A DNA stretch of 33,349 bases from Escherichia phage P2_AC1: the sequence record NC_070903.1. One strand, given 5' to 3'. The notes below the pieces were generated by a model. The model ran no database searches. It saw nothing but the letters and a program-made list of their open reading frames with translations, and was not told the origin of the DNA. The translations under genes were made by a program, and so were the position numbers. Positions 15,715-20,626 of this stretch are shown here, in pieces (position 1 is the first letter of the stretch; each line of letters opens with the position of its first letter).

Positions 15715-16905
15715 TTAATTGCTGTTAACCAAGGTGACCAGATTTGCCAGGTATTTATCGGTAATACGCTGGCGCAGGGTCAGGTTTTCGAGAGGAGGCA
15801 CCGGTGTATAGTCGTAGTCGATATACAATTTTCCGGCCTTGAGGGTTTCCGCATCGTTGGATTCTTCGCTGAACCAGCAGGTCGCATCCACGATATAGCC
15901 GTTTGTTTTCAGCTCACGGAATTTGGCATTGATGCCGTCAACGATGTCGCGAATCAGCGTTGCAGTGATGGGCTTGTCCACCGCCCACATGTGCGCCTCA
16001 GCCATCGTGTCGGCCAGCACCTGCGCGGTGCGGGTGTAGTTTTCAAAGAGGAACAGCGGGTCATCAGAGCAGGTACGGTTACCCCAGAAGCGGAAACCGT
16101 CACGGCGAATCAGCGTTGTGACACCTGACTCGTTCAACAGGTCAGCATCGGTGCCGGACTCCTGCAAATCCCAGAATACAGAGGCACTGATGCCGGTAAC
16201 ACCGTTTACCCCGACGTTGGACAGCGTTTTATGCCAGCCCTGCTCCTGGTCGATTTTAGCGCGCAGGCCCAGCGCACGGGCGGTGGCATACGCGGTGGCG
16301 GTGGTACTGGCGACCGTATCCCATGCGAGGAAATCCGGCCAGATGACCATCAGCTCACGCTGGCTGAAATTCTGGCGGTAGGCTTTCACCTCGGAAATGG
16401 TTTTACAGCCCCATGCGCTGATATACCCGAAAGCGCGCAGCTTCTGACAGACGGATGCCAGTGCAACAGCCACCTCTTTGGTGTCCAGTCCCGGCACACC
16501 GAGAATACGCGGTTTAACACCGGTAACCGACTCCGCCGCCAGCAGGGCTTTCAGTCCGGTGTACTGACCGTTTTCGTCGGTGGTGCCGATGATATTGGAA
16601 ACAGTCTGCGCGAGTTTCGTTTCTTCGTCGTCGCCGGTGCCGTCTTCCACGCGCACAACAACGGTGACCGGTTTTGACTGGTCAGCGATGGCCTGCAACG
16701 ATGCCGCCAGCGTGCCTTTTTTACCGGCCTTTGCAATTGCGCTCTGCACATTGGTAATCAGCACCGGTTTATTGAGGGGGAAGGTTTCCGCATCCGCATC
16801 GCTGGCCGTGCAGACCATGCCGACAATGGCCGTGGATACGGTGGAAATGACGCGGGTGCCGTCGTTAATTTCCAGCACCTGCACGCCGTGATGATAGTCA
16901 CTCAT
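15715..16905 (-). CDS. FI: contractile tail sheath protein FI
   Basis: 396-aa ORF, P2 FI length and position. Confidence 0.95.
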   Translation of the reverse strand: MSDYHHGVQVLEINDGTRVISTVSTAIVGMVCTASDADAETFPLNKPVLITNVQSAIAKAGKKGTLAASLQAIADQSKPVTVVVRVEDGTGDDEETKLAQTVSNIIGTTDENGQYTGLKALLAAESVTGVKPRILGVPGLDTKEVAVALASVCQKLRAFGYISAWGCKTISEVKAYRQNFSQRELMVIWPDFLAWDTVASTTATAYATARALGLRAKIDQEQGWHKTLSNVGVNGVTGISASVFWDLQESGTDADLLNESGVTTLIRRDGFRFWGNRTCSDDPLFLFENYTRTAQVLADTMAEAHMWAVDKPITATLIRDIVDGINAKFRELKTNGYIVDATCWFSEESNDAETLKAGKLYIDYDYTPVPPLENLTLRQRITDKYLANLVTLVNSN

Positions 16906-17000
16906 CCGTTTAACTCCGTGGTTAATGGGTGCAACTATTTTCCGTTGGGTAGTGCATGAGACGCTATTTAACCTGGCTGGTCAGTGGATGAAACAACAGA

Positions 17001-17027
17001 TAAAGAAAAAGCGGGCAATTCGCCCGC
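17001..17027 (-). terminator. rho-independent terminator between the G-FI cargo gene and FI
   Basis: Stem gcgggc / gcccgc with 5-nt loop, followed on the minus strand by tttttcttta. Confidence 0.5.
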
Positions 17028-17234
17028 CTGTCCTGATTTGTACACACTCATTTTCCGACTGACAATTTACATAACCCAAAAGTTATCAAATATGACAGTC
17101 TGCTTTGAGCAAGAAGCGGACATTTGCCTGTCAGGGTATATGCCGCTCTGCGGTTATTATCCAGAATCAATAATTCATCTGAGTTGGATTACATATAAAA
17201 CATAGTTATCCCATGAATAACCATTAGCAGATCA

Positions 17235-17828
17235 TCAATTATGTAAATCTTTTGTTTCAGGTTTTTTGAGGTGTTGTGACAACAAATGGCTATAGCGTTT
17301 AAGCAAAATATTAGAAAGATTAAACTCATTCATGAAGTGTTCTTCTAATAAGTAACCATCAATATCAACTTTAATATCATTATTACTTTTCATCTTCTGT
17401 AACGTAGATTTTACACGCTCCAGCAGGATGCTTTGCTCATGGTAATAGTCCATAAGAAGAGTAACATCCTCTTTATCAAGTTTACTTAATTCACTGAAGT
17501 AGGCTTTAAACACTTTATCAGTCTGGTTTAATGCAACCTGTAAGCGAGGCCCTCCTAATGATTTGACATTAATGGCAAAAGGCTCGCCAACAAAATGCTC
17601 CGAATTTTCGTCAAAGCCAATATGTCTCGTTTTATCAAGAAAAGTGAGAGCGCGATGGTTATTAGCGATTTCATATGCAAACATTGTTCTGATACTGTCC
17701 CTCTCAGCCTCCATGCTTATATCATCACGGTGATTTGTATAAAATATATTTCCAACAAAGAGAACCATAGCAAGAATCACTGAACTTGCCTCCCAGTTAA
17801 TATTTTTTAATCGTCGCTTAGTAAACAT
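17235..17828 (-). CDS. hypothetical membrane-anchored cargo protein in the Z/fun variable locus
   Basis: 197-aa ORF, AAGGTG RBS 5 nt before ATG; N-terminal signal-anchor helix (about res 14-36), remainder soluble; AT-rich island 16906-18049 between G and FI. Confidence 0.6.
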   Translation of the reverse strand: MFTKRRLKNINWEASSVILAMVLFVGNIFYTNHRDDISMEAERDSIRTMFAYEIANNHRALTFLDKTRHIGFDENSEHFVGEPFAINVKSLGGPRLQVALNQTDKVFKAYFSELSKLDKEDVTLLMDYYHEQSILLERVKSTLQKMKSNNDIKVDIDGYLLEEHFMNEFNLSNILLKRYSHLLSQHLKKPETKDLHN

Positions 17829-18049
17829 ACCGCACCTTAATTATCAAAAATATTCCTTCAGTGTTATCTGGTTAGCCTAAACCAAGTCATTAAAGTCCGC
17901 AGGATATCATATACATAAAATGTATTGATTAGAATTTGCACTAATAAAATAATGCTTTACTAAAATCTACTCCAGACACAGAGCGGTCTGTCAGATTAGG
18001 CTTTACTCTGTGCTATAGATATGTAAGCTCACACCAGAGATCATACAAC

Positions 18050-18577
18050 TTATTGCGGCATTTCCGGCCATTCGGGATTTGCAGGATCCACACGACTGAC
18101 CAGAACGCTGTAGCGTTCCCATGCTTCCAGTCGGCTGCGTTCCTCATCCGTCGCCATATTCAGCTTGACAGCGCGTTCCAGCGGCAAAATCACGGATTCA
18201 ACTTCGGAAAGTAAAGCTGCTTTTTGTGATTCTGCCTGTTGCTCCTGTTCATCTGCCGTATAAATCCGCTTAATCACGGCACCATCCTTAAACATCCATT
18301 TACCTGAGTCATCAGCACGTCGGTTGGAGGTAATATCAGGAACCTCGACAACGCTGAAACCTTCAGGGTTAAGCGTTGAAGCATCTCTGGTGATGCCGAC
18401 AATTATATTATTCTCGTCGTAAACAATCTTTATCGTGTCTTCCTGAAAATTACTTACTTCCTCATACCAGTTTTTTCCCTCTTCGGACCATAACCAGATA
18501 ACATCAAAATTTTTTGTCAGTTGATATTGGGCAACAGTTTTTGGATTACCCGCAGTAATATTTTTTAAATGCTGCAT
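18050..18577 (-). CDS. G: tail fibre assembly protein gpG
   Basis: 175-aa ORF immediately downstream of H; P2 gpG length. Confidence 0.9.
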
Positions 18578-18580
18578 AAA

Positions 18581-20626
18581 TTACACCTGTGCGACGTTAT
18601 ACCATGTGCCATTGATGTATTTTTGTATTGGCCTGAATACTGCGGGGTCATCACCATCGACTTCACCGACAATACCAAGCCCGGTAATTACGTGCCCTGC
18701 TTTCTCATACATCACCCCTTTCTGCATGGTCTGGACAACACGTGTGCCAAGTCTGATATCTCTCACATAGCGGGAATCAAAGTTACCGTAATCCGAGGGA
18801 TTAACACGCCCCGTAATATTTATGGTCTTATTACTTTGAATGCTTCCGGAAACAAAGCGCATAACATGGACGTTATTAGCATAAACATCCAGATTACCAT
18901 CGCCATTTTGTTTAAATCCGGTGTCGTTATCACCAAGAACAATAGAGTTCCCACCCAACGCGTTATTCGTGCCAAGTGCCAGCCCGCCATCAATCCTGGC
19001 ACCATTACCAACAGACACAACTCCTGTTCTTAAGTTGATGCCGAATGGCCTTAATGGCCCAATATCTCCATTTTCACCCTCATTTTCTCGTGTAGGAATG
19101 ATATACAGGTTTTCTTCAGAACGGCGAAAAATAGCACCAAAAGATGAATTAAATATCCTCAGCGCATTGACTGTAGATATTTTTACTTCACTGCTGAAAA
19201 GGGCTTTAACAAGAACATACAGAGCATCCCATTTAAGATTCATCAGGTCTTTTGTTGTGGTGCTCTGGCGACTTCTCCATTTGAAATATTCATTGCCGTT
19301 GTCACCTGTTTCAAACCACATATATGAATCAGTATCGCTGTCGGCATCATTTTTAAATCCAATCTTTGCCCAGTCAGTATTTCGAATCCAGGCAAGGATT
19401 GAGTCGTTTTCAAAAGTAAGCCCGCCGGACAAGGTATCGCCATTTTTTTGCACGGCGTTCCCGGCTCGGTTTACCGTTTCCTGTAAACCGAGATATTCGA
19501 TAACGGCGGCAACGGTCGATTTAGCCAGAATATCCCGCCCGACTTTTGTCAGGGTCGCCAGGCTGGCAACATCATTCCCCGTAAAATACGGAAACCTGTC
19601 TGCCGCAGTAGCAAGCCCCGCCAGCGCCGTCAAAGTGGCATCTTTCGGTTGCTTACCCGCAAGCGCATTAGTCATGGTGGTAGCAAAATTCGGGTCATTG
19701 CCCAGCGCCGCCGCCAGCTCGTTCAGCGTATTCAGTGCGTCAGGCGACGAGTCTACAAGGGCGGCAATCGCGGCCATAACGAAAGCCGTGTTTGCGATCT
19801 GAGTATTATTCGTTCCCTGTCGCGCAGTTGGCGTCGTTGGCGTTCCGGTCAGTGCAGGGCTGTTTAATGGCGCTTTCTTGTTCGTTTCATCCATTACCGT
19901 CTTAACGGCTTTTGGTGTTGCGGCGAGCGTTTCAGACGTGCTGTTGGTGGCACTACTGAGCTGGACAAGGCCTTTTCGCGCTGTGGTGGCGTCCTGTGCA
20001 GTGTATTTCCCGTTAGCAAGGTCATATGCTGCTTTTACCGCTTTTGGTGTTGCGGCGAGTGTTTCAGACGTGCTGTTGGTCGCACTGCTTAACTGAGTAA
20101 AACCTTTGGCGGTCAGCGAGGCGTCCGGGTGACGTCGTGACTGTTCATGTTCTGCAATTTTGTCATCAACGTAATCCTGCGTTGCCATCACCGTTGTGGT
20201 GTCAATGGTCAGCGCCACTGAGGCCACACTGCTGACGATGATGACCATGCGGCAGGTCTGCGAACGCCCTGAGCCTTCGGCAAGAGCTGGCTTATAACTT
20301 TCAGCCATGTTCGCCACGGCAATTAACGTTCCAGCATCATCGTACAGGCCAAGCTCACGCATCCAGAAACCGCCCACCTCCGGCGGAATAACCAGCTCTG
20401 CGATAATATAATTACTGTTTCGTTTGTCCTGGCTGATTTTGTTCAGCGCATGTCGCCAGACTTCGTGGATAAGCCCGGTCTGTCCGGCATCCGGGACAGG
20501 CAATTTACCACCGCCATCCCCGACGGCCATCGTGGTAATGTTGACCTTCCGCCCTCCCGGCGCGGTTGCCGCTGCCAGCTTTGCTGCACCAGCAGTGGTG
20601 ATAACGGTTCTGAATTTTGTGCTCAT
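18581..20626 (-). CDS. H: tail fibre protein gpH (receptor-binding)
   Basis: 681-aa ORF; conserved N-terminus MSTKFRTVITTAGAAKLAAATAPGG..., internal duplicated QLSSATNSTSETLAATPKAVK motif, Gly/Asn-rich C-terminal region. Confidence 0.9.
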   Translation of the reverse strand: MSTKFRTVITTAGAAKLAAATAPGGRKVNITTMAVGDGGGKLPVPDAGQTGLIHEVWRHALNKISQDKRNSNYIIAELVIPPEVGGFWMRELGLYDDAGTLIAVANMAESYKPALAEGSGRSQTCRMVIIVSSVASVALTIDTTTVMATQDYVDDKIAEHEQSRRHPDASLTAKGFTQLSSATNSTSETLAATPKAVKAAYDLANGKYTAQDATTARKGLVQLSSATNSTSETLAATPKAVKTVMDETNKKAPLNSPALTGTPTTPTARQGTNNTQIANTAFVMAAIAALVDSSPDALNTLNELAAALGNDPNFATTMTNALAGKQPKDATLTALAGLATAADRFPYFTGNDVASLATLTKVGRDILAKSTVAAVIEYLGLQETVNRAGNAVQKNGDTLSGGLTFENDSILAWIRNTDWAKIGFKNDADSDTDSYMWFETGDNGNEYFKWRSRQSTTTKDLMNLKWDALYVLVKALFSSEVKISTVNALRIFNSSFGAIFRRSEENLYIIPTRENEGENGDIGPLRPFGINLRTGVVSVGNGARIDGGLALGTNNALGGNSIVLGDNDTGFKQNGDGNLDVYANNVHVMRFVSGSIQSNKTINITGRVNPSDYGNFDSRYVRDIRLGTRVVQTMQKGVMYEKAGHVITGLGIVGEVDGDDPAVFRPIQKYINGTWYNVAQV
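19905..20092. repeat. direct repeat inside H (two ~53-bp near-identical copies about 131 bp apart)
   Basis: Copies at 19905-19957 and 20036-20092 differ at a few positions; they encode the duplicated LSSATNSTSETLAATPKAVK peptide. Confidence 0.7.

What the first reader, a model, noticed from the sequence alone, without database searches (positions are those of the whole stretch)
16906..18049. Cargo gene in the Z/fun variable locus between G and FI: 197-aa membrane-anchored protein
The G-FI junction, which holds Z/fun in P2, here holds a 1.1-kb AT-rich insert encoding a 197-aa protein with an N-terminal signal-anchor helix and good RBS, followed by its own terminator (17001-17027) before FI. 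It is on the same strand as the late genes, whereas P2 fun is transcribed in the opposite direction, so this is a replacement, not a fun homologue. It is a candidate superinfection-exclusion or defence protein.
Basis: partly seen in the sequence, partly recalled or inferred. Interest (0 to 1): 0.6.

Follow-up and report, generated by a model that had tools for sequence, protein, structure and literature searches.

The report
Membrane-protein cargo cassette in P2 hotspot
A P2-like prophage carries, at its known variable G–FI spot, a real but uncharacterised gene for a small membrane-anchored protein (probably a phage-exclusion factor), and the swap-in cassette is bounded by two short palindromic sites that also bracket other cargo in phages, plasmids and islands.

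Summary
A 197-aa ORF (17235-17828, minus strand) with a good RBS lies in an AT-rich insert between tail-fibre assembly gene G and sheath gene FI.

Two details need correcting:
- The foreign DNA is about 0.89 kb (17098-17988), not 1.1 kb.
- The terminator at 17009-17029 is conserved P2 backbone, not the gene's own. The ORF therefore sits inside the late V transcription unit. An independent promoter is unproven.

The protein:
- It is under purifying selection (dN/dS about 0.1-0.2).
- It matches no Pfam, NCBIfam or PADLOC model and is unrelated to P2 Fun(Z).
- The model is one N-terminal transmembrane helix plus a four-helix bundle, probably periplasmic.
- Relatives are always solitary cargo on mobile elements: P2-like phages, a P4-like satellite, a lambdoid prophage end, an ICE and a plasmid. 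In two places they lie next to SIR2-HerA or a type II restriction-modification system.
- My best guess is envelope-level phage exclusion. This is unproven.

Unexpected finding: the cassette is flanked by two related palindromic sites, L and R. The same pair brackets 32 different cargo types in P2-like phages. It also brackets PARIS, Gabija-like and ars cassettes elsewhere. The sites are chimeric at the junctions, which suggests cassette exchange by recombination within them.

The parts
17235..17828 (-). Cargo ORF, 197 aa (stop codon included). Single-pass membrane protein of an uncharacterised family (PHROG 3829).
   Evidence: dN/dS 0.06-0.24. AF2 model pLDDT 83.6: helix 12-66, then a helical bundle.
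17736..17792 (-). Codons for the predicted transmembrane helix (residues 13-31, EASSVILAMVLFVGNIFYT).
   Evidence: Hydropathy 1.54 over 19 residues. Conserved across 38 family members.
17833..17838 (-). Ribosome-binding site AAGGTG, 4 nt upstream of the ATG.
   Evidence: The block TTTTTGATAATTAAGG is conserved in the Pantoea and plasmid copies.
17829..17964 (-). Cargo-specific 5' region (136 nt). It holds an AT-rich block that travels with the gene to other elements. Only weak promoter matches.
17965..17988 (-). L boundary site, decayed copy: GACCGCTCTGTGTCTGGAGTAGAT (consensus GTCCGCTCTGTGCCAGGAGCGGAC).
17989..18049 (-). Conserved backbone between the G stop codon and the L site, including AGCCTAATCTGACA directly before L.
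17122..17234 (-). Cargo-specific 3' untranslated region (113 nt).
17098..17121 (-). R boundary site GTCCGCTTCTTGCTCAAAGCAGAC. The inner arm is cargo-linked and the outer arm is backbone-linked.
17009..17029 (-). Intrinsic-terminator-like hairpin with T-run. It is a P2 backbone element that ends transcription coming from G and the cargo, ahead of pF.
   Evidence: Conserved in P2, Wphi, L-413C and 12474III.
16906..17008 (-). Backbone pF late-promoter region upstream of FI, placed by alignment with the annotated P2 activator site and transcription start.
18050..18577 (-). Gene G, tail fibre assembly protein (flank).
   Evidence: Pfam Caudo_TAP, E = 1.4e-34.
15715..16905 (-). Gene FI, tail sheath (flank).
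   Evidence: Pfam Phage_sheath_1 and related domains.

Best explanation
The G-FI interval holds an 0.89-kb mobile cassette with one gene. Its product is a small inner-membrane protein: a roughly 12-residue basic N-terminal tail, one transmembrane helix, and a roughly 160-residue four-helix bundle that most likely faces the periplasm.

It has essentially no cytoplasmic part apart from that tail, so it must act in the membrane or periplasm. The most likely role is envelope-level exclusion of other phages, that is, interference with DNA entry or with a membrane or periplasmic entry factor. This would benefit the prophage and its host.

Transcription is at least by read-through from the late V operon, ending at the backbone terminator. 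A weak promoter of its own in the 136-nt leader is possible.

What is shown and what is inferred:
- Shown: the gene is real, it is under selection, it is solitary and mobile, and its boundaries are mapped.
- Inferred: the topology.
- Inferred from context only: the anti-phage function and the mechanism.
For: - Real, conserved gene: 38 homologous clusters, all from sources named as Enterobacterales where named; 29 representatives in the exhaustive search; dN/dS 0.06-0.24.
- Common: 201 of 5426 complete E. coli genomes carry it, about 20% of the 1003 with this junction. Eleven Peduovirus records carry it.
- Architecture: one hydrophobic helix in all members. N-flanks are basic (up to 8 K/R in distant members) and C-flanks are acidic. 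A conserved C-x4-C pair sits in the C-terminal tail of three divergent subgroups, which fits a periplasmic disulfide.
- Fold: AF2 pLDDT 83.6, transmembrane helix continuing into a four-helix bundle. The closest folds are generic four-helix bundles, including periplasmic chemoreceptor and sensor-kinase modules.
- Context: always a solo gene on mobile DNA. It is found at the P2 Z/fun locus (a known defence-enriched locus, PMC9519451), in a P4-like satellite, at a lambdoid prophage end next to a type II RM system, next to SIR2-HerA, in an ICE and on an IncFII plasmid.
Against: - No homology to any known exclusion or defence protein. No specific structural match.
- No convincing promoter for lysogenic expression. 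If the gene is expressed only late, a role in the lytic cycle is as likely as protection of the lysogen.
- In the closest family members the K/R count alone does not settle the topology: 2-4 on the N side against 1-4 on the C side.
- The L/R-bounded cassettes carry non-defence genes too, such as ars and transporters, so the location is weaker evidence for defence than it looks.
- The accessions are absent from the DefensePredictor supplements.
Confidence: 0.4

Rival explanations
1. Abortive-infection or other post-entry defence. The transmembrane helices oligomerise and damage the membrane when infection is sensed, as proposed for membrane effectors of several defence systems.
For: - Single-gene membrane proteins occur among defence hotspot cargo (PMC9122126).
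- Defence neighbours in two contexts.
- Solo, mobile distribution.
Against: - Only one transmembrane helix, and no recognisable sensor or enzymatic domain.
- The cytoplasmic part is only about 12 residues if the predicted topology is right, which leaves nothing to sense cytoplasmic infection cues.
- No PADLOC match.
Confidence: 0.18
2. An envelope function unrelated to phages. Examples: immunity to a periplasm-acting toxin, bacteriocin or tailocin; modulation of a surface structure ('lysogenic conversion' in the classical sense); or another host-fitness trait.
For: - The Pantoea copy lies a few kb from Rhs/WHH toxin and SUKH immunity genes.
- L/R cassettes carry many kinds of accessory genes.
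- Part of RefSeq calls it 'lysogenic conversion protein'.
Against: - The RefSeq name is applied inconsistently to proteins that are near-identical (their 1144-bp intervals are 97-99% identical to the window's): some are 'hypothetical'. No NCBIfam model matches the protein and I found no paper about it.
- No enzyme motif or glycosyltransferase-like domain.
- No toxin gene is consistently adjacent.
Confidence: 0.2
3. A late-expressed accessory of the P2 lytic cycle, for example lysis timing or blocking superinfection or re-adsorption during late infection, rather than a lysogen-expressed gene.
For: - Same strand as the late genes.
- No terminator between G and the ORF; the first terminator is the backbone one after the ORF.
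- Only weak promoter matches.
Against: - Relatives sit in non-phage contexts (ICE, plasmid, chromosomal islands) where no late operon exists.
- Most P2-like phages lack the gene and carry other cargo instead, so it is dispensable.
Confidence: 0.12

Closest known systems
P2 Fun(Z) and the P2 Z/fun (G-FI) defence-enriched locus
   Same: Same position between G and FI. Non-essential, AT-rich cargo. The locus is known to hold fun (annotated in the P2 record as blocking T5 growth when cloned) and three PD systems (PMC9519451).
   Different: No sequence similarity. 197 aa against 528 aa. Opposite orientation. Membrane-anchored, where Fun(Z) shares no region with it. No tested phenotype.
Prophage superinfection-exclusion membrane proteins (HK97 gp15, T4 Imm, P22 SieA, lactococcal Sie2009; recalled from general knowledge)
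   Same: Small, single-gene, prophage- or phage-borne inner-membrane proteins without enzymatic domains, often placed as cargo among tail genes.
   Different: No detectable sequence or specific fold relationship. Function not tested. A promoter for lysogenic expression is not evident.
Four-helix-bundle periplasmic sensor modules of chemoreceptors and histidine kinases (4HB type)
Integron gene cassettes / heterospecific lox-type cassette exchange (comparison for the L and R boundary sites)
   Same: Variable cargo of unrelated function sits at a fixed place, bounded by short imperfect palindromes. Arrays of cassettes occur (R, 15-18 nt, L). The sites are chimeric at junctions, as expected for crossover between the two arms.
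   Different: No integrase or other recombinase recurs nearby. The sites are 24 bp and lack the attC R-box GTTRRRY. Each cassette has two different sites rather than one attC. Recombination has not been demonstrated.

Membership tests
P2 Fun(Z) | Sequence homology to P2 NP_046777 (528 aa). | tested here: not met
   BLASTP best E = 2.1 over 34 residues.
P2 Fun(Z) | Transcribed opposite to the late genes, between G and FI. | tested here: not met
   Same locus, but the ORF is on the late-gene strand.
Known anti-phage defence systems (PADLOC-DB 2.0) | A match to any of the 5027 defence protein models. | tested here: not met
   0 families at E <= 1.
Moron (autonomous prophage cargo unit with its own promoter and terminator) | Own promoter upstream. 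| tested here: inconclusive
   Only 8-9 of 12 sigma-70 matches; the best one overlaps the RBS.
Moron (autonomous prophage cargo unit with its own promoter and terminator) | Own terminator downstream. | tested here: not met
   The only terminator (17009-17029) is backbone, shared by phages with other cargo.
Moron (autonomous prophage cargo unit with its own promoter and terminator) | Deviant base composition and dispensability. | tested here: met
   GC 0.342 against 0.507 for the window. Absent from about 80% of E. coli P2-like loci.
Superinfection-exclusion membrane proteins | Inner-membrane location. | tested here: met
   Prediction only: one conserved hydrophobic helix in all 38 aligned members.
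Superinfection-exclusion membrane proteins | Expression from the prophage and a block of phage DNA entry. | not testable with these tools
   Needs transcript mapping and infection assays.
PHROG 3829 / RefSeq 'lysogenic conversion protein' cluster | Full-length profile match. | tested here: met
   phrog_3829 E = 9e-134 over residues 1-197. Member of a 569-sequence 90% cluster. The family has no known function.
Integron cassette (for the boundary sites) | An attC site with R-box GTTRRRY/RYYYAAC and an integron integrase. | tested here: not met
   The L and R sequences lack the R-box. No integrase recurs in 120 loci.
IS200/IS605-type element (for the boundary sites) | Whole subterminal hairpins move with the element; Y1 transposase. 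| tested here: not met
   Outer arms stay with the P2 backbone and inner arms go with the cargo. No recurring transposase.

The most novel reading that the evidence does not exclude
The two boundary sites are heterospecific recombination sites. L (GTCCGCTYTGTGCCARRAGCGGAC) and R (GTCCGCTYYTCGCTCAWAGCGGAC) have the same 7-8-bp inverted arms but different centres. L-by-L plus R-by-R crossovers would swap whole cassettes between P2-like phages, ICEs, plasmids, other prophages and chromosomal islands. That would be a natural counterpart of recombinase-mediated cassette exchange, driven by a recombinase acting in trans that has not been identified. If so, the 197-aa gene is one cassette of a shared pool that also holds PARIS, Gabija-like and ars cassettes, and this would explain the rapid cargo swapping at the P2 Z/fun hotspot.
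Probability: 0.3. Interest if true: 0.85.

Novelty: new variant of a known kind. Interest (0 to 1): 0.58.

Why it matters
The gene:
- It is the resident cargo at about a fifth of the P2-like G-FI junctions found in complete E. coli genomes, which is about 4% of those genomes.
- It belongs to no described family, so it is a cheap and well-defined candidate for a new envelope-level phage-exclusion protein.

The boundary sites may matter more. A 2026 survey of P2 and P4 hotspots states that the way defence cargo is swapped there, and exchanged with unrelated mobile elements, is unknown, and that transposable elements are not involved (PMC13586616). A conserved pair of short palindromic sites brackets 32 unrelated cargo types in P2-like phages and other cassettes elsewhere, and the junction sites are chimeric. 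This turns that question into testable experiments.

Tried and rejected
Protein searches that found nothing useful:
- Pfam, NCBIfam and PADLOC scans of the protein, and Pfam on 18 family members: no meaningful hit.
- PDB sequence search with the family profile: nothing below E = 0.2.
- First AF2 run with 22 close homologues: unusable, pLDDT 46. A second run with 38 diverse sequences worked.
- Similarity to P2 Fun(Z) and Wphi gp44: none.

Literature searches that found nothing:
- Accession numbers, the RefSeq name, the PHROG id and the site sequences: nothing relevant.
- Odegrip 2006 and Sibley & Raleigh 2004 are not held.

Tests on the region and the boundary sites:
- Rfam on the region: nothing.
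- An empty P2 site with the outer flanks 15-45 nt apart: none in IMG/VR.
- L or R sites in the K-12 hsd-mcr immigration control region: none.
- A recombinase or transposase family recurring beside the sites: none among 1925 ORFs from 120 loci.
- Base-pair covariation in the R arms: weak and inconclusive.
- IS200/IS605-like and attC-like readings of the sites: rejected on site anatomy.

Full report
**1. What is there**

The window is a P2-like (Peduovirus) prophage with its late genes on the minus strand. Pfam identifies:
- 18581-20626 as the tail fibre gene H;
- 18050-18577 as the tail-fibre assembly gene G;
- 15715-16905 as the sheath gene FI.

Between G and FI lies one long ORF, 17235-17828 on the minus strand, 197 aa. 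It has an ATG start preceded by AAGGTG four bases upstream. GC is 0.34 across the insert, against 0.565 in FI and 0.507 for the window.

The interval is 100% identical to E. coli M21816. At 80% coverage or more it is present in 201 of 5426 complete E. coli genomes. A further 802 genomes match only the flanks, so about one P2-like G-FI junction in five carries this cargo. Eleven Peduovirus records encode the protein at about 95% identity.

**2. Boundaries, and the terminator**

I aligned the interval with P2, Wphi, L-413C and vB_EcoM-12474III, each of which has different cargo.
- On the FI side, similarity runs up to about 17113-17127.
- On the G side, it runs from 17977.
- The foreign DNA is therefore about 0.89 kb, with an 843-bp interior at 17122-17964.

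The terminator-like hairpin at 17009-17029 lies in the conserved part. It is present in all four phages, including P2, whose fun(Z) is on the other strand. It is a backbone element just upstream of the pF region, whose activator site and transcription start are annotated in P2.

No terminator-like site lies between the G stop codon and the ORF. The leader has only 8-9 of 12 sigma-70 matches, and the best of them overlaps the RBS. By default, then, the ORF belongs to the late V transcription unit. Expression from the lysogen is unproven.

P2 fun(Z) is 528 aa, on the opposite strand, and unrelated. Orientation is not a rule at this locus: Wphi orf44 is co-oriented with the late genes, while the cargo of L-413C and 12474III is opposed.

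**3. The protein**

Family searches:
- Nothing in Pfam, NCBIfam or PADLOC.
- PHROG 3829 matches end to end, but it has no known function.
- The word-indexed search found 38 clusters. Those that carry a source name are from Escherichia, Pantoea, Salmonella, Kosakonia, Pluralibacter and Enterobacter.
- The exhaustive profile search found 29 representatives. They include full-length relatives at 17-38% identity with the same layout.

Selection: pairwise dN/dS is 0.06-0.24.

Topology:
- Every aligned member has one hydrophobic helix near the N-terminus, apart from one N-terminally truncated sequence.
- N-flanks are basic (2-4 K/R in close members, 5-8 in distant ones). C-flanks are acidic.
- Three divergent subgroups keep a C-x4-C pair in the C-terminal tail.
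- Together these favour an N-in, C-out topology with a periplasmic C-terminal domain. This is an inference.

Structure:
- With the 38-sequence alignment AlphaFold gives pLDDT 83.6 and pTM 0.73. The transmembrane helix continues as a long helix (12-66). A short hairpin follows, then four more helices that pack into a bundle.
- Foldseek against viral models finds nothing below E = 0.1.

Naming: part of RefSeq calls it 'lysogenic conversion protein', but other records with near-identical DNA (97-99% over the 1144-bp interval) are called 'hypothetical'. I found no model or paper behind the name.

**4. Where relatives live**

The gene is always solitary, and always in accessory DNA:

| Locus | Context |
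|---|---|
| L007 | Pantoea island with an AlpA-type regulator |
| L009 | Enterobacter IncFII plasmid |
| L012-L014 | End of a lambdoid prophage in Salmonella, next to a type II methyltransferase and restriction enzyme |
| L015 | P4-like satellite in Pantoea ananatis, after the primase |
| L016 | Between tra genes of a Salmonella conjugative element (distant homologue) |
| L008 | Dickeya island beside SIR2-HerA (distant homologue) |

The G-FI locus itself was already noted as a second defence-enriched locus of P2-like prophages. [quoted passage not shown] Rousset et al. analysed only the A-Q hotspot (PMC9122126).

**5. Most likely function**

With the predicted topology, apart from a roughly 12-residue N-terminal tail the protein has no cytoplasmic part, and it has no enzymatic motif. 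It can therefore only act in the membrane or periplasm. Combined with its solitary, mobile distribution and its defence neighbours, the best-supported reading is envelope-level exclusion of other phages.

I give about 0.4 to this whole statement. About half of my probability is on some anti-phage role, exclusion and abortive infection together.

Rivals:
- a membrane abortive-infection effector;
- a non-phage envelope function, such as immunity to a periplasm-acting toxin or a surface change;
- a late lytic-cycle accessory.

The last rival gains weight from the missing promoter. It loses weight because relatives sit in non-phage elements.

**6. The boundary sites**

This was found while mapping the cassette. 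On the late-gene strand the cargo is bracketed by two related 24-bp palindromic sites.
- L, next to G. Consensus: GTCCGCTCTGTGCCAGGAGCGGAC. The copy here, at 17965-17988, is decayed: GACCGCTCTGTGTCTGGAGTAGAT.
- R, next to FI, at 17098-17121: GTCCGCTTCTTGCTCAAAGCAGAC.
- The two have the same arms and different centres.

In P2-like phages:
- An IMG/VR scan with the backbone flank plus the outer half of L found 100 sites. Of these, 69 have R plus the pF backbone downstream on the same strand; most of the rest are truncated loci.
- Those 69 hold 32 unrelated cargo types of 843-5837 bp.
- The outer arms stay with the backbone. The R outer arm is AGCAGAC or a close variant, never the general consensus AGCGGAC.
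- The inner arms differ between cargo types yet mostly stay close to the consensus.
- The junction sites are therefore chimeric, which places the breakpoints between the arms.

Outside P2-like phages:
- The same L-cargo-R unit carries the 197-aa gene in the Pantoea island and on the IncFII plasmid. The two copies are 94% identical, and similarity stops in the R site.
- In the Salmonella conjugative element, L and R enclose the distant homologue together with an IS110 element.
- Other L-R units hold:
  - PARIS AriAB in an E. coli island next to a hipA fragment;
  - an OLD-like ATPase plus UvrD-like helicase pair, identified from the protein N-termini only;
  - an ars-like operon, also identified from the protein N-termini only;
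  - a transporter/regulator set;
  - a 136-aa ORF that is about 98-99% identical between two genera, with similarity running from about 10 nt inside the R site to the L site.
- Arrays read R, 15-18 nt, L.

How widespread, and how significant:
- Among blocks of similarity between loci, 21 of 59 internal ends lie within 35 nt of a site, against 2.8% of bases (binomial p about 6e-18).
- The R-spacer-L junction is covered at 80% or more in 753 of 5426 E. coli genomes, with up to five places per genome.
- A 23-base degenerate L pattern, expected about once by chance by my own estimate, hit more than 120 loci in the species-representative genomes. These include many Alphaproteobacteria and Nitrosomonadaceae, where it is a multi-copy tandem-hairpin repeat.

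Limits:
- I found no recurrent recombinase next to the sites.
- Arm covariation is weak.
- There is no Rfam family.
- No paper in the library contains the sequence.
- A 2026 survey states that the swapping mechanism at P2 and P4 hotspots is unknown (PMC13586616).

The anatomy fits crossover inside the sites. Possible mechanisms are site-specific recombination in trans, or microhomology-based exchange. It does not fit attC sites or IS200/IS605 ends. No recombination has been shown here.

**7. Verdict**

- The defence reading is reasonable but untested.
- The gene belongs to an uncharacterised family at a known hotspot.
- The paired boundary sites are the more surprising result and deserve their own follow-up.

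Noticed in passing
window 17098-17121 and 17965-17988; also L003-L009, L016, L097, L120, L121, L137, L138, L139-L236: Two related 24-bp palindromic sites (L and R: same arms, different centres) bracket the variable cargo at the P2 G-FI locus, with 32 cargo types seen in IMG/VR. The same pair brackets unrelated cassettes (PARIS, Gabija-like, ars and others) in plasmids, an ICE, prophages and islands. The junction sites are chimeric: outer arm with the backbone, inner arm with the cargo.
   Followed up: yes
L017-L136 (e.g. L040, L106, L114, L132): In soil Alphaproteobacteria (Pseudolabrys, Xanthobacteraceae, Hyphomicrobiales) and in Nitrosomonadaceae the L-type palindrome is a multi-copy repeat. 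It usually appears as a tandem: GTCCGCTTTACCCCCGAAAGCGGAC, about 21 nt, then L. The ORF family that recurs most often in these loci (25 loci) begins with a twin-arginine-like signal sequence. I did not run it against any family library, and I did not measure its position relative to the repeat.
   Followed up: partly
window 17009-17029: A strong intrinsic terminator is conserved in all P2-like phages compared, directly upstream of the pF late-promoter region. It looks like an insulator that stops transcription from whatever cargo occupies the hotspot.
   Followed up: partly
window 17965-17988; same in L001, L010, L011 and two IMG/VR contigs: In this cargo type the L site is decayed, with two changes in the centre and three in the inner arm, while R is intact. 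If the sites are recombination substrates, this cassette may be locked in. That could relate to its high frequency.
   Followed up: no
L008 4640-5662 and L016 8117-9355: IS110-family transposase genes lie beside or inside the cassettes that hold the distant homologues. In L016 the element lies between the L and R sites.
   Followed up: no
window 18400-19400: GC drops to 0.40-0.46 over gene G and the 3' part of the tail fibre gene H. The receptor-binding module is therefore compositionally distinct from the rest of the late region, separately from the cargo cassette. G is not linked to a particular cargo type.
   Followed up: partly
L008 5888-6000 and L016 5894-6000: The distant homologues in Dickeya and in the Salmonella ICE share a conserved leader with TTGACA and TATAAT hexamers, although the spacing is short. 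The close family in this window has no such element.
   Followed up: no
RefSeq records NZ_CP133923, NZ_AP022326, NC_022370: RefSeq names the protein 'lysogenic conversion protein' in one record and 'hypothetical protein' in others, although the 1144-bp intervals are 97-99% identical. No NCBIfam model matches the protein, so the name is not evidence of function.
   Followed up: yes
L033, L092, L118: A XerD-like recombinase gene lies within 8 kb of an L-type site in 3 of 120 loci. My rough estimate of the chance expectation is about 0.24. This is too few to interpret.
   Followed up: no
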